Numbered from the stretch's first letter, positions 4,347 through 35,474 are shown. The stretch is 64,000 nucleotides of DNA from Saccostrea echinata (GCF_033153115.1 NW_026889782.1:24304001-24368000); one strand, 5' to 3'. The notes: generated by a model not told the origin, from the sequence alone. A program made the numbers and translations.

Positions 4347-4619
4347 CATGGGAATATTAAGTGGTAAAAGTTTTGAAAATCTGAATAAGAACAACACGGT
4401 TAAAGTCATTAAAGTTACTCAGGTGAGTATTGTGGCCCATGATCTTCGTTATTCAAATGTTTTTGAAATTATTTCTTATGTTTGATGTTGTATCTCTAGC
4501 AAATCTGCAATAGTTGGTTTGTATCTAAAGCATAAAAAAATGTTCCGACATTATAGCTCCTTTACTTCCTGTTAAATCTTTCACATTACAATGTTCAACT
4601 CCCATGAGTACTTTCAGTA

Positions 4620-5340
4620 CTTTGATATATACACTGACCTTCTGCTTCTGAATCGTCAAATGTCTCATCTTCATTTTTTGATTCCGGCCCTGCAGTAATT
4701 GCAGTAATTGCATTGGAGAAAGTAGGCCTAGTAGTTTCTCTAGGGCCAGGGGTAGTGGTAGAACTAGATTCAACTGGGGAAAAAAAACATTTAGCGATTT
4801 CCAATTGACATGAAATATTTATAACATGTTGTTTTGACAATCAGTCCCAAAACAGATGAAGAGAATATGACAGTTTTATACACTGACCTTCTGCTTTGAA
4901 ATCATCTAAAGTCTCATCTTCGCTTTTTGATTCCGGCCCTAAGGTAATCGTAGCGGTGTTGGAGAAGGTAGGCCTAGTAGTTTCTCTAGGGCCAGGGGTA
5001 GTGGAAGAACTAGGTACACCTGGGGAAAAAAATCATCTAGCGATTCCCAATTGACATGAAATATTTACAAAATGTTGTTTTGAAAGTCATTCCCAAAACA
5101 CATGAAGGGAATATGACAGTTTTATACACTGACCTTCTGCTTTGAAATCATCTAAAGTCTCATCTTCGCTTTTTGATTCCGGCCTAAGGTAATCGTAGCG
5201 GTGTTGGAGAAGGTAGGCCTAGTAGTTTCTCTAGGGCCAGGGTAGTGGTAGAACTAGGTACACCTGGGGAAAAAAATCATTTAGCGATTCCCAATTGACA
5301 TGAAATATTTACAAAATGTTGTTTTTGACAATCAGTTTCA
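4620..5340. repeat. ~246-bp tandem triplication, each unit = one exon plus intron
   Basis: ACACTGACCTTCTGCT recurs at ~4631, ~4880 and ~5126. Confidence 0.9.
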
Positions 5341-6909
5341 AATATATAGGATATTGTGCTTTTCTGGATTCTCTGACTATTCACCTTGGTCTACTAAAAT
5401 GTTATGAATGCCTGATTTGGTGAAAGTTAAAGAATAAATTGTACATTTTAATTTTTATTTTATGAATGATCAAAGGGCAGAAAACTATTTGCATAAAACT
5501 GTAGCGCTGACCGAGCGGTCGTATTTAATTAATTAAGTCTTTATTTTGGTAGCGTAAAATCCTTCCTCATATCTTGAAATGAGACTCAAGTTCATCTATT
5601 CTACAGTTTATTTACACATCTCACAACTATATACAATCACTAATATCAATCACAAAATAAATCCAAGTAATATAATCCAAATATAGTAACATGAGCGAAG
5701 TTTATAATCCAAGTGTCAAAGTCATAGTACTGAATCCTCCCTAACACAGTTTCAACGTGGTATTTATACTAAAGATCCGCTCCTGACAATAAGGAGCTCA
5801 TATTCTGGATTCATAAGATTAGGAGTCAATGTATCAATTACATAAATTAATATGGCAATCAGCAGGCGGTACATAACATAGACATGTGGGGTAATTGAGA
5901 TACACATTAAGGATAAAGATATAAAAAGTGTGAAAATAATATCAATTTACGAATTAATTAAGGTAACATATTTGAGACCGCTACAAAACTACCACAAATT
6001 TAGAACTCTTTAGTGTACAGTGCATAGAGGACTCTTAAATTTGTGTATTGTGCAACTTCTTTTGCCCAGATGTCATCCCCATTTAACAATAATGAACTAA
6101 GCATAGCATGTACGGATTTTTTTTATTAGTCTTCTCTGGTTGAAGTACCATAATTTGATCAAGGTTTAATAAATTTGAAACAGTAAACTTTTGTTCCGAT
6201 ACAAACTCTTTCTATAGTATATACTATACCTGTTAACAAAACTTAGCAGTCGACTTCCAGTGTCTGTAGCATTGATATATATTTACATATATTGTTAATG
6301 ACATCTTTAACTCAATCTGATGCTTCAAAAATGAAATGAATAGAATGGGAAGTCACGGTGACCATGCTGTTTACCCCAAGTTTGATGACGTCACAAATCA
6401 TGTACACAACATTCCATTCACTCGTAACTCCTCGGTGATATTCGTAGAGAAAAATAACCGAGCGATATACATAAATAAAAAAAGGGGGGGGGGAGAGAGA
6501 GAAGGGGAAAATGAGTAAATAGTAAACTTGGACATATTGTAAACAAGAAATTTCCAACTGGAAAAAATACAAATATTTAAATATATTTTTACCAAAGAAA
6601 AAAAAATAATATGAAATTATAAATACTTACCATTGGCATTGCACGCCTCCCCGAATCGATTTTTCTCAAACTGCTTTGCATTCTCGGGTTCCAATTCTAT
6701 TAAACAACTAAAAATCATAATCTCTCTGAGATGTCTTGGGGCCACGGAATTACTCTCACGGAACCAGAAATGATGTGTCTACAGTCCGCTATTCCGGTAC
6801 CAGTGATTGGGCAGATTCTGCAAGGCCAAGGCGATCCTTCCGAAATTTTAACATACATGTATGTTGCCATGAGCATAAACCACACAATTTCTTTTCGTTT
6901 CATCCACAT
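4639..6909 (-). pseudogene. Spliced gene or pseudogene for a secreted/surface protein: signal peptide, Cys-rich exon and three tandem Ser/Thr/Pro-rich exons
   Basis: Exon 6909-6631 reads MWMKRKEIVWFMLMATYMYVKISEG-SPWPCRICP...C...C...C and ends at a phase-1 gtaagt donor; it needs +1 C in the C4 run at ~6740. Phase 1-1 exons at 5263-5134, 5019-4888 and 4773-4639 have ccccag/gtcagt sites. Confidence 0.55.
5500..5985 (-). mobile_element. Solo LTR (486 bp)
   Basis: TGTAGCG...CGCTACA termini and a 4-bp TSD AAAC on both sides. TATAAATA and AATAAA are present on the minus strand. Confidence 0.8.
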
Positions 6910-7633
6910 CTTCTCCAGCTTGAAATAATGGGGTTTTTTTTTTGGTCATATGACTTTTACCCGCGAATCCCATATATGGAGATATCCGTTAGGCTTTTTA
7001 CGCACGTGCTCTGATGCGGGTTTTAGCTCTCATCAAATTCCCGCATCCGTCGCCTGATATCTATCATTTCTCAACTGCAATCAATGTTTTTTTTATGTTA
7101 TTTTATTCATGTTAATTGAGTTAAATTGGGTCTACACACGGCATCATTATTGTTCATGATGAAAGATACATTAATATATTGGGTGGTATAGCTATTACAA
7201 TTTCAGCACCTTTGGCCGGGTGATTTAATAATTGGGGTTACGAGGATTTTCAAATTAGAAACGACGACACACGTCTTGGTTGTCGGTCTCTGTACTTTGG
7301 GTGTTAATGAAAGAACAATCTTGCATTCTTTTAGATAATGAATTATTTTTAAAATATTTATAATGATTTTCAAAAAATACACAAACAAGCACATACCCGG
7401 TAGCATAATCACACTCTTGATTACTTTTTTTTTAAGTCTTTAATTTTAAATCATTAAAAAAGGAAATCGTGAATTTATTTGTTAATTAAATGAATTTGAT
7501 TTAATGATTTGTGATAGTTTTTTTTTAAGGGAATTATTTTCAAAGTATGACTGAACAATTTTTAAAAACTCACTTCGATGATCTTTGTGAATGACTAGAT
7601 AGAAGTAGTGTCATGTAAATGGGGTGAAACGAC

Positions 7634-7690
<57 letters not shown>

Positions 7691-32996: not shown

Positions 32997-33243
32997 AATG
33001 GGGAGGAATGTAGTGGACTTGGAAGTACCGGGCACGAATTGCCCTGCTACCTCCGGTCACGTGGTGCACTGCACACATTGTTTGACGTGTACCCGCATTC
33101 CTTCTCTCTTTTGACTTTTGCTGTTGTCTAGATCAGACACGCTGTTTTTGTAAGTCGTGATATCGTATTGTTTATAGGCGACTACTAGCTAGATAAAGGT
33201 GCGGATATTATAATATACTGTTGTTCTTGTTTCCGCCATCACA
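32997..33243 (+). mobile_element. PPT (AATGGGGAGGAA) and 3' LTR (33009-33243) of a TatD-bearing LTR retrotransposon
   Basis: PPT followed by TGTAGTGG...CCATCACA. The PPT plus TGTAGT is identical to that at 42883-42900 (minus). Confidence 0.7.
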
Positions 33244-33292
33244 TTTTATATATGTAGATTAAAAGAAAACATTATAAATCCGTTTAATTTTT

Positions 33293-33895
33293 TTAAAGAC
33301 CTCCGTCCCAGAGACATAATGATAAGTGCCATTCATTATGACGAATTGGACATGCCGTGTCCGTCCCCTTCCATACTGTAGAGGGCACGAATACCGCGGC
33401 CATGATGAGATCGTCCTCAATAGAAACGAGGACATCCCATTCGATTCCTCTTCTAGAGTTGACATTGGGAACCTGAAGTATACCCGGGATGAACGAGGGG
33501 TCAATCTCAAACATATCAAAGAAGATTAAAAAGAAGCACAAAAAGAAAAACAGGTGTCTCTTTGGAGTCACTCTCGTCACCCTGGCCAGTGCTTGAAAAA
33601 TTCATCCGTCGAGTTTCTGAAAAATCGAAGCTCTATATCCGACTTGCACTGCCGGAGAAATTCTCGTTCATATCACCCAATTCCTCTGTGGTATTACGCA
33701 ATACCAAAAAGGGAGCGCAAGACACCTTGACAATCGAGTCTGCGTGACCCTGGGTATAATCACCGAGGAACTCCTGACGTATGCCTACCTTCCGCATTTA
33801 GATAATATTTTGTAACAAACATTTACGTTGACAGTCCTTAGATGGGGAACGCCGTCTCGTACGTTAGTCCCAGCCACGATGAAGATTCTGTACAA
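33293..33895 (+). pseudogene. polB: Maverick/Polinton protein-primed PolB N-terminal fragment
   Basis: KDLRPRDI...HYDELDMP...IVLNRNEDIPFDSSSRVDIG...VCVTLG...LTYAYLPHL...MGNAVSYVSPSHDE, collinear with the 59010-60044 fragment. Confidence 0.7.
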
Positions 33896-35474
33896 TAACG
33901 ATAAGGACATTCATTATCTTATTTAATATTAAATACCTTTGAAGTGTATTCCAAACCATTATCGTGTTTGAAGTCAACTTTTTATCAAACATTTATTATT
34001 TATGTATTATTTAGGAAAAAATGACCTATTAAATATGGTATTCTATTGGGTTTTTTTCATTGAATTGTATTTTCCTTACCAATTGGAAATGAAATATAAT
34101 ATGTGATTGCTGTATTAATAATTAATTACGAGGGTTGTCCCAGAAAAACGCGAACTTTTCCAATATTTTTCGTTTCACTGATATTATATAGTTAAAAATT
34201 GGCATGCAGCATAATCAACATTTATTACATTATTCATAGAAATTTAAAAAAAAAATCTCTATAAATAACATTTTCTCTCTCTGATAAACGACTCGTTCAA
34301 AATAGCTCCTGGCGCAACACCGACGACGTCAAAACGTAGCTCGTAGAGATTTTTGGATTTGTTCAGGAATCGTGCGTCTTTAAAAATTCGTTCGAACAGA
34401 AATTCGATACTACATTTGTTTTCTTTTAGTTACCGAGTTATCCATTTCACACGAACTACAGTTAAGAATAAATTAAGGAATTAATTCTTTTAATAGACAA
34501 TTTCCCAACCCCGATCATAAACTTAACTGCTCTCATAGTTAACGGTGGTCTCCACGTATGACGTCCAGCTCTAGACTTTTCAGTTTTGTCGTCATTTTTG
34601 TTGGTCTACCAAACGCAAATATAAGCACAACTGTTAGGTAAGGGGCCAGTCGTTATCCTGTTAGGGGATAGTTAGAATACTATAAACAATTAAGGCTAAG
34701 AATGGTAAAAAAAAAAAGATATTTCCATATCTTGTGGTTCAGTAGATTCTGAGCTCTTTGTCAAATCATATGCTAACTCAACAGTACACTTACATGTTTT
34801 GACTTTAAGGACTTTTGTGCTAGACAGTCCTATACTACCAGCAGCATCACGCGTGTATTGCCACAAGAACAACCCCAATGCATTGTTTGTCAAATATAAC
34901 GAGCTTCCCCATCACCAAATGCTAGACAGAATTGTAGTTAAATAAGATTTCCAGATCCAATTTTCGATTACAACAGCCGACACGTAGAACAAAAAGTATG
35001 GGCCATAGATTCAACACCAATTAAACCTAACATACTTGAGGTATGTCAACTCATGTGCCTGATTAACATACGGTTCATTGTCATCTCTGGATTTTACAGT
35101 GATTTTCACTTAAATTATTCTTTACATCTGTAAATTTGTCATTGTCAATGTTATGGCACTTTAATTAGAAGATCATTTATAGTTCTTTCGTTCTACTCAG
35201 CAGGTTCTATTATAAAATATCTCATAACTCATAAGGTTTAATTCCATATTGACAGCATTGCCTTAGTAAGCATTCTGAACACTCAATCGTCAAAGTCTCC
35301 ATGAATTATGTTTTTTTTAATTTGGAAGTTAGTACTGATGCTTTTGCAATATAATATCATATTGAAAGCTAAGCCAAGCATATTTCTGGCATTGATAATG
35401 GTATATCAAATGATTTCTCTCGTAATCAGTGGGAAGATTCTGAGAACGTGCTCCAAAAGCAACACGGGTCCCAT

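What the first reader, a model, noticed from the sequence alone, without database searches (positions are those of the whole stretch)
4600..33900. Nest of Maverick/Polinton-like virus genomes with intron-containing accessory genes
Seen: a PolB N-terminal fragment (33293-33895), four PC4-like genes, three gene-A-family copies, two signal-peptide genes and an acidic exon. Most have TATA boxes and short GT-AG introns, and they are interleaved with candidate AGTAGT termini. Known: Mavericks encode protein-primed PolB, integrase, ATPase, protease and capsids, and are usually described with compact, mostly intronless ORFs. Inference: these are terminal/accessory regions of several large Mavericks with a spliced 'early gene'-like repertoire, piled up at one locus. 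No capsid, ATPase or integrase was found in the window, so linkage of each gene to a Maverick is inferred.
Basis: inference. Interest (0 to 1): 0.78.

Follow-up and report, generated by a model that had tools for sequence, protein, structure and literature searches.

The report
Oyster Mavericks with spliced polymerase-tail mimic
This stretch is a pile of virus-like Maverick elements inserted into one another, and their end regions carry intron-containing genes; one of these genes has repeatedly multiplied the YSPxSP motif of the RNA polymerase II tail and likely acts as a viral mimic of that tail, which is untested.

Summary
Confirmed and extended. The window holds pieces of seven Maverick (Polinton) families. 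The first piece (1-13506) is the right arm of a complete 42.8-kb element with AGTAGT/ACTACT ends and a 6-bp target duplication. Its integrase, capsid, protease, ATPase and PolB lie just upstream of the window. Sister elements elsewhere carry the same accessory arms.

The introns are well supported by comparison: GT/AG sites are kept across 7 copies, 13 of 14 internal exons keep frame, dN/dS is about 0.2, and RefSeq models join the same exons. No spliced RNA was seen in the runs laid.

'Gene A' at 9105 and the unnoticed ORF at 12267 are one four-exon gene: acidic FxxxWxxL helix, basic patch, YSPxSP repeats, C-terminal helix. The repeat was amplified with at least six different periods and is not a DNA copy of host RPB1. 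RefSeq names such proteins 'RPB1-like'. It is likely an early nuclear regulator that mimics the Pol II CTD (about 45%).

Corrections: 4 of 20 hexamers are true termini; one PC4 gene is firm, one weak and two unproven; 31.9-33.3 kb is a different repeat, likely an LTR retroelement piece.

The parts
1..13506 (.). X1: right arm of a complete family-1 Maverick (left end G000:C33:24274718; 42,789 bp with insertions); core genes lie upstream of the window
   Evidence: 4626-13506 is colinear with the C1 sister
13324..13512 (+). X1 right inverted repeat ending ACTACT (13501-13506), followed by target duplication GTTGTT (13507-13512), which is also found at the left end
4639..6633 (-). Spliced membrane glycoprotein gene of family 1: three tandem Ser/Thr-rich exons (246-bp exon+intron repeat) and an upstream donor near 6630; the transmembrane exon is seen in the C1 sister; the 5' part is not resolved
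9020..9208 (+). Gene A1: TATA box 9020 and exon 1 (9105-9208), acidic amphipathic helix
9770..11690 (.). Host 168-bp-repeat element inserted in gene A1 intron 1, absent from sisters
11709..11816 (+). Gene A1 exon 2 (basic KRK-type patch)
11918..11995 (+). Gene A1 exon 3
12267..12841 (+). Gene A1 exon 4: YSPxSP heptads (about 12374-12472) and conserved C-terminal helix; this copy has a frame break near the exon start
   Evidence: Pfam PF05001 26.1 bits, cut-off 20.3
13507..15409 (.). X3: internal fragment of a family-3 Maverick into which X1 inserted; holds a three-exon gene (13595-14607, PC4/PUR-like lead only) and a PolB piece (15108-15407)
15432..15923 (+). Acidic two-exon gene of a family-6-like Maverick (TATA 15432, ATG 15462, acceptor 15637), cut by the X2 insertion
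15924..24180 (.). X2: terminal arm of a family-2 Maverick starting AGTAGTAG
21257..22584 (-). Family-2 spliced glycoprotein gene: signal peptide, Cys-rich domain, mucin-like exon(s), hydrophobic exon; broken in this copy
24048..24180 (+). Exon 1 of the family-2 homolog of the three-exon gene, truncated
24188..24363 (+). Not Maverick: piece of an ORF that precedes LINE-like ORFs at C28 and C36
24363..26134 (.). X4: terminal piece of a family-4 Maverick ending ACTACT; single-exon hydrophobic + weak PC4 gene at 25053-25397(-)
26135..29580 (+). X5: right end of a family-5 Maverick with gene A2 (26394-26870, degenerate duplicate) and gene A3 (27745-28489); the family-5 gene A checked has no YSPxSP
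29607..31887 (+). X6: family-6 fragments: macrodomain-like piece (label recalled, no Pfam hit), intronless double-PC4 gene (TATA 30609, ATG 30677, frameshifted), then a jump to the element's other arm
31902..33280 (.). Not Maverick: piece of a multicopy repeat whose last 270 bp recur 5-10 kb away in other copies, likely an LTR retroelement 5' part
33295..33883 (+). X7: frameshifted PolB N-terminal fragment of a seventh family

Best explanation
The region is a nest of integrated Mavericks whose terminal arms carry virus-borne genes with GT-AG introns, and gene A likely encodes an early nuclear regulator whose YSPxSP repeats would mimic the RNA polymerase II tail. Shown: Maverick identity and nesting (about 0.97); a four-exon gene under purifying selection (about 0.9); repeated amplification of YSPxSP. 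Inferred: host Pol II transcribes these TATA-driven genes and the spliceosome processes them, while the core module stays intronless. The protein would enter the nucleus through its basic patch and contact a coactivator or p53-pathway pocket through its acidic FxxxWxxL helix. It would self-associate through the C-terminal helix and present YSPxSP repeats to CTD kinases, phosphatases or readers, either recruiting them to viral genes or titrating them from host genes. This is an E1A-like job done with a CTD decoy. A spliced mucin-stalk glycoprotein in the same arm would be the surface-facing counterpart.
For: Ends and 6-bp duplications in 10 of 11 elements. Core genes: rve, DNA_pol_B_2, weak Pox_A32 and Peptidase_C5. 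Donors 1-3 are GT in 21 of 21, acceptors 2-3 AG in 14 of 14, acceptor 4 in 5 of 7. 13 of 14 internal exons are multiples of 3, while most intron-1 gaps are not. dN/dS is 0.13-0.36 in 17 of 21 pairs. RefSeq models P0001, P0011 and P0081 join the same exons. PF05001 is over cut-off in the window and C1 copies. Y[ST]PxSP occurs in 17 of 41 homologs against 0.09 after shuffling. With a heptad-free query, 21 of the top 30 loci carry YSPxSP. Periods are 7, 9, 16-40, 17, 18 and 56 residues. FxxxWxx[LIV] is in 9 of 9 database homologs with exon 1 and 12 of 13 local copies. The model is isolated helices with disordered linkers.
Against: No binding or phosphorylation data. Family-5 gene A lacks the motif, and many homologs carry one copy or none, so it is not essential. 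Position 4 is V/A/Q/S and position 7 E/G/D/A, not T and S. Non-heptad spacings break the CTD register. Unrelated proteins with YTPASP-type repeats were also retrieved (P0030, P0053). No spliced reads, and depth under about 1.5 on gene-A exons, in three poly(A) runs; one contig crosses intron 3 unspliced. Three close pairs give dN/dS 0.71-1.31 and one is saturated.
Confidence: 0.5

Rival explanations
1. Gene A is a real spliced Maverick regulator, but YSPxSP is an ordinary proline-directed phosphorylation switch or phosphodegron, expanded by slippage, with no CTD mimicry.
For: Periods vary widely. Within-locus DNA identity of repeats is 0.98, so they expand by local duplication. The motif is absent in family 5. 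Similar repeats occur in unrelated proteins.
Against: The whole Y-S-P-x-S-P hexamer is kept, including Tyr, with Ser2 coded by AGY in 58 and TCN in 9 of 67 motifs. Seven is the commonest tandem period.
Confidence: 0.35
2. The spliced genes are host genes picked up as cargo, as proposed for nematode Mavericks; gene A would be a captured RPB1 fragment.
For: Intron-bearing cargo is described in nematode Mavericks (10.1101/2022.07.12.499685, passages). RefSeq names P0001, P0041 and P0081 'RPB1-like'.
Against: No blastn match between 30 gene-A loci and the host CTD exon. Ser5 uses AGY in 24 of 39 host and 0 of 67 Maverick motifs. The flanking domains match no Pfam family or PDB chain. 61 of 66 matches lie on the four Maverick-rich contigs, and 18 of 28 have a terminus motif 0.7-1.3 kb downstream. 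An ancient capture is not excluded.
Confidence: 0.1
3. On the pile-up only: the nest is an active small-RNA trap, or the chromodomain integrase targets old Mavericks, rather than passive build-up in a permissive region.
For: 106 of 150 ATPase matches lie on four contigs holding 9.2% of the assembly. There are four Maverick-in-Maverick junctions in 30 kb, and the same acidic gene was hit by a second family at C6. The family-1 integrase has a Chromo hit.
Against: Of 11 elements checked, only X1 and the C1 sister had Maverick sequence on both flanks; the C6 family-5 case is a third. LINE, LTR and host repeats fill the same region. The four contigs may include allelic copies (97% over 10 kb). No small-RNA data.
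Confidence: 0.3
4. The introns or the nest are artefacts of decayed sequence or of assembly.
For: Most window copies are broken, and no RNA joints were seen.
Against: Matching target duplications, conserved splice sites, dN/dS about 0.2, and the same junctions in records named from other oyster species.
Confidence: 0.03

Closest known systems
Mavericks/Polintons of vertebrates (PMC8097293, passages read)
   Same: AGTAGT//ACTACT ends, inverted repeats, 6-bp duplications, 18-23 kb sisters, core genes, accessory regions flanking the core.
   Different: That paper states no introns were seen in genes of intact elements; here the accessory arms hold multi-exon genes under purifying selection.
Adintoviruses and their 'Oncoid' accessory genes (PMC8502044, passages read)
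   Same: Animal polinton-like viruses with PolB, integrase and motif-based regulatory genes upstream of PolB; IAP homologs also noted.
   Different: Oncoids are defined by LXCXE/CR1 and CXXC motifs; gene A instead has FxxxWxxL and YSPxSP. 'splic' and 'PC4' occur 0 times in that paper's main text; its supplements were not read.
Nematode Maverick cargo, wasp proteases and krma kinases (10.1101/2022.07.12.499685, passages read)
   Same: Intron-containing genes in a variable terminal region next to an intronless core.
   Different: Read there as host-derived cargo enzymes. Here the genes have no host donor found, recur across Maverick families and oyster genera, and look regulatory or surface-facing.
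RPB1 C-terminal domain (Pfam PF05001) and cellular CTD-like motifs such as Spt5's (PMC7070488, one passage) and PIE-1's (recalled)
   Same: Y-S-P-x-S-P core, often in a 7-residue register; over the Pfam cut-off in two copies.
   Different: 0-9 repeats rather than the host's 42; residues 4 and 7 differ; no polymerase domains; no DNA similarity to host RPB1.
Adenovirus E1A and E3 early regions (recalled)
   Same: Spliced, TATA-driven terminal genes for a motif-rich disordered regulator and membrane glycoproteins in a PolB/protease/ATPase-type virus lineage.
   Different: No sequence homology was tested or found; the likeness is one of organisation only.

Membership tests
Maverick/Polinton | Terminal inverted repeats with AGTAGT...ACTACT ends | tested here: met
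   X1 and sisters of families 1-5; ends of families 6 and 7 were not defined
Maverick/Polinton | 6-bp target site duplication | tested here: met
   10 of 11 elements, including X1 (GTTGTT); the C5 family-1 copy has none
Maverick/Polinton | Protein-primed PolB | tested here: met
   PF03175 over cut-off in X1, C1 and C40. The family-3 PolB-like ORF tested had no PF03175 hit; families 2-3 are called PolB from position and recalled motifs
Maverick/Polinton | Retroviral-like integrase | tested here: met
   PF00665 over cut-off in X1, C1 and the family-6 sister
Maverick/Polinton | Packaging ATPase and adenovirus-like protease | tested here: met
   Pox_A32 and Peptidase_C5 are top hits but under cut-off (E 0.0003-0.01), in the expected gene order
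Maverick/Polinton | Double jelly-roll major and minor capsid proteins | tested here: inconclusive
   A conserved 441-442 aa ORF sits in the capsid position in all families, but had no Pfam or PDB sequence hit; not folded
Maverick/Polinton | Intronless genes (as described for vertebrate elements) | tested here: not met
   Core ORFs are unspliced; accessory genes are multi-exon. This is a described trait, not a strict criterion, given nematode cargo
RPB1 (true polymerase subunit) | Polymerase domains and descent from the host gene | tested here: not met
   Only PF05001 hits; host RPB1 lies on C8 with 42 heptads; no DNA match
Pol II CTD mimic | Tandem YSPxSP heptads | tested here: met
   period 7 in 8 of 28 parsed loci, other periods or none elsewhere
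Pol II CTD mimic | Phosphorylation by CTD kinases or binding to CTD readers | not testable with these tools
   needs biochemistry
PC4 (PF02229) | PC4 domain in the gene at 30677 | tested here: met
   intact sister 68.7 bits, two stretches; local HMM E 4e-7
PC4 (PF02229) | PC4 domain in the spliced genes at 13595 and 24048 | tested here: inconclusive
   No Pfam, HMM or hhalign match. Atlas lead 0.85 to a cluster with 44% PC4. Model pLDDT 43 with four strands and helices; weak Pur-alpha rows, E 0.1
piRNA cluster | Dense 26-31-nt RNA production | not tested
   no small-RNA run was among those listed

The most novel reading that the evidence does not exclude
Oyster Mavericks have an adenovirus-style spliced early region. 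Its gene A is a virus-encoded decoy of the RNA polymerase II CTD, joined to a p53-like activation helix, and its repeat number is tuned lineage by lineage through independent amplification of YSPxSP.
Probability: 0.42. Interest if true: 0.85.

Novelty: new variant of a known kind. Interest (0 to 1): 0.68.

Why it matters
How integrated Mavericks switch on and handle host transcription is unknown, and their genes are usually annotated as intronless ORFs, so spliced genes are missed or filed as host genes. Here such proteins are already in RefSeq as 'RPB1-like'. Gene A gives a concrete, cheap test: short YSPxSP peptides against CDK7/CDK9 and CTD readers, with family-5 gene A as a natural repeat-free control. 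My library searches listed no virus- or transposon-encoded CTD mimic. Most subscription papers are outside that library, so this is not proof of absence.

Tried and rejected
RNA: two lays of three poly(A) runs plus contig runs X1 and X2 gave depth mainly on host repeats. No predicted intron appeared among listed joints: 15 shown and 115 not shown, one listed. It was not shown that these runs are from the same species, so this is no evidence of silence.

PF05001 search of the genome rang nowhere, controls included, so it is uninformative. Atlas search of P0001 gave no usable hit. PDB sequence searches of the capsid-position ORF and of the gene-A profile gave nothing. Foldseek of both models had no E<=0.001 match. 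A PC4 profile from 12 local domains did not detect P0005.

Rejected: ACTACT at 15903 as a terminus; a PolB fragment on the minus strand at 33293; one PC4 gene spanning 23925-24388, which is two unrelated pieces; recent capture of heptads from host RPB1. Earlier scan notes: three look-ups returned nothing.
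Full report
Setting. The window is G000:C33:24304001-24368000 in a 923-Mb assembly. Named homologs of its genes come from oysters of three genera. I searched the genome with each part of the finding and fetched the best loci with flanks.

The nest. The region splits into seven Maverick families plus passengers.
X1 (1-13506) is the right arm of a complete element. Its left end is at C33:24274718, both ends read AGTAGT/ACTACT, and GTTGTT is duplicated on both sides. 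Integrase, capsid-position ORF, protease, ATPase and PolB lie upstream of the window, partly broken. Both flanks of X1 map to adjacent parts of a family-3 element, so X1 is inserted in X3.
X3 ends in a PolB piece at 15108-15407. Next comes an acidic gene that in other copies runs on past 15923, where X2 begins; a family-5 element splits the same gene's intron at C6, with duplication AATTAC. X4 ends at 26134 against family-5 sequence, and X5 ends at 29580 against family-6 sequence. These two nestings rest on one flank only.
Ten of 11 elements checked have a perfect 6-bp duplication. Four of 20 hexamers in 4600-33900 mark true ends; 12.7 are expected by chance. Mavericks are clustered: 106 of 150 scored ATPase matches (446 candidates) lie on C33, C5, C36 and C6, which hold 9.2% of the assembly. 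Some may be allelic copies.

Are the introns real? For gene A, seven copies at 67-94% DNA identity were compared. Donors 1-3 are GT in 21 of 21 cases and acceptors 2-3 AG in 14 of 14. Acceptor 4 is kept in 5 of 7; it is lost in one copy and was not located in another. All introns are phase 2. Exon 2 is 111 or 108 nt (106 in one broken copy) and exon 3 is 78 or 66 nt, while most gaps in intron 1 are not multiples of three (for example 12 of 16). dN/dS over the predicted exons is 0.13-0.36 in 17 of 21 pairs, 0.71-1.31 in three close pairs, and saturated in one; the pairs are not independent. The C1 copy is open through all four exons; the window copy has a frame break near the start of exon 4.
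Database models agree. P0001 (RefSeq, O. edulis) joins exons 2-3-4 at these points. P0011 (S. cucullata) and P0081 (C. gigas) join exon 1 to exon 2. P0005 (C. angulata) gives the three-exon gene at 13595. P0083/P0084, 100% identical to the C54 copy and so possibly from this genome, give two isoforms of the mucin-type glycoprotein. I did not see the evidence behind those models.
Against this, two read lays showed no spliced joints and near-zero exon depth, and one contig crosses intron 3 unspliced. 115 joints were not shown, and the runs' species match is unproven.

Gene A. Exon 4 of the window copy scores over the Pfam cut-off for the RPB1 C-terminal repeat (26.1 against 20.3 bits; C1 copy 37.5). 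A full HMMER search gave 74 proteins at E<=0.001. Of the 82 proteins then held, 41 were kept as family members (40 by the C-terminal helix motif, plus P0041), and 17 of them have Y[ST]PxSP against 0.09 after shuffling. That query contained heptads, so I repeated the test with the heptad-free C-terminal helix. It gave 68 matches in the genome, and 21 of the top 30 loci carry YSPxSP in some frame.
After dropping two tandem duplicates, 24 of 66 matches have a same-strand ATPase 5-30 kb upstream, using 115 of the 150 ATPase rows; random positions give 1.07, maximum 7. Of 28 parsed loci, 18 have a terminus motif 0.7-1.3 kb downstream.
The motif was amplified with periods of 7, 9, 16-40, 17, 18 and 56 residues. 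Among 49 Tyr-led motifs the free positions are V/A/Q/S at 4 and E/G/D/A at 7; the other positions were partly fixed by my pattern. The host CTD on C8 has 42 heptads, shows no blastn match to 30 gene-A loci, and uses different Ser5 codons, so the repeats are not a recent capture.
Exon 1 carries FxxxWxx[LIV] in 9 of 9 database homologs that include it and 12 of 13 local copies; the window's A1 is the exception. Its likeness to the p53 activation helix is recalled, not tested. AlphaFold gives isolated helices, with the 82-104 hairpin and 151-185 helix at pLDDT above 90, pTM 0.30 and no fold match. A2 and A3 belong to the family-5 form, which keeps the acidic helix and the C-terminal helix but lacks the repeats in the copy checked.

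Mechanism. Shown: a Maverick-borne, four-exon gene under purifying selection, with an acidic helix, a basic patch and a variable YSPxSP array. Inferred: an early nuclear regulator whose repeats engage CTD kinases or readers (about 0.45). The main rival is a plain multi-site phospho-switch (0.35). Ancient host cargo is less likely (0.1). Why the elements pile up is a separate, open question.

Comparison. Vertebrate Mavericks are reported without introns (PMC8097293, passages). The adintovirus paper describes motif-based Oncoids and does not mention splicing in its main text (PMC8502044, passages). Intron-bearing cargo is known from nematode Mavericks (10.1101/2022.07.12.499685, passages), so introns in Mavericks are not new in themselves. 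The 2026 polisuvirus preprint's passages did not bear on this. Searches (listings only, apart from papers named as read) showed no spliced oyster Maverick genes and no element-encoded CTD mimic. Supplements were not read; those of the preprints are closed and may bear on accessory-gene annotation.

Verdict. This is a new variant of a known kind, with one specific, testable surprise in gene A. Interest 0.68.

Noticed in passing
L050:7408-7806 (+); family-3 accessory arm, also at C16: ORF with a U11-48K-type CHHC zinc finger (PF05253, 41.5 bits). This finger is also found in the piRNA factor Gtsf1/Asterix (recalled), so it is a candidate piRNA-pathway antagonist carried by a Maverick.
   Followed up: no
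L033:5874-6908 and L029:1468-2496: Family-1 Mavericks, X1 included, encode a CARD domain fused to PC4 domains next to the integrase.
   Followed up: partly
L035:8069-8710 (-): BIR+RING (IAP) gene in another Maverick that flanks the C1 family-1 element on both sides.
   Followed up: partly
window 36198-40844: Full-length LTR retrotransposon with a 1298-aa ORF (RT, RNase H, integrase) and near-identical LTRs.
   Followed up: partly
window 58888-59854 (-) and 61057-62976: A second PolB N-terminal fragment and several family-4 terminal fragments, so the nest continues beyond the finding.
   Followed up: partly
window 9290-9760; L035:4105-4595: High-copy host repeats sit inside gene A intron 1 and are shared by family-1 copies, so the elements kept spreading with them.
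   Followed up: partly
L039-L041 (C5:11034617-11053366): Family-4 element whose two ends are a 2.7-kb inverted repeat at 99.6% identity, with one arm's genes copied to both ends.
   Followed up: no
C6:12467853-12473681 (L057/L076): 5.8-kb element with Maverick ends and a 6-bp duplication but no long core ORF seen: a possible non-autonomous derivative.
   Followed up: no
window 43632-44222 (-): TatD DNase-like fragment (PF01026, 40 bits) in a repeat-rich stretch.
   Followed up: no
P0001, P0041, P0081: Database records named 'RNA polymerase II subunit RPB1-like' are gene-A family members, not polymerase subunits.
   Followed up: yes
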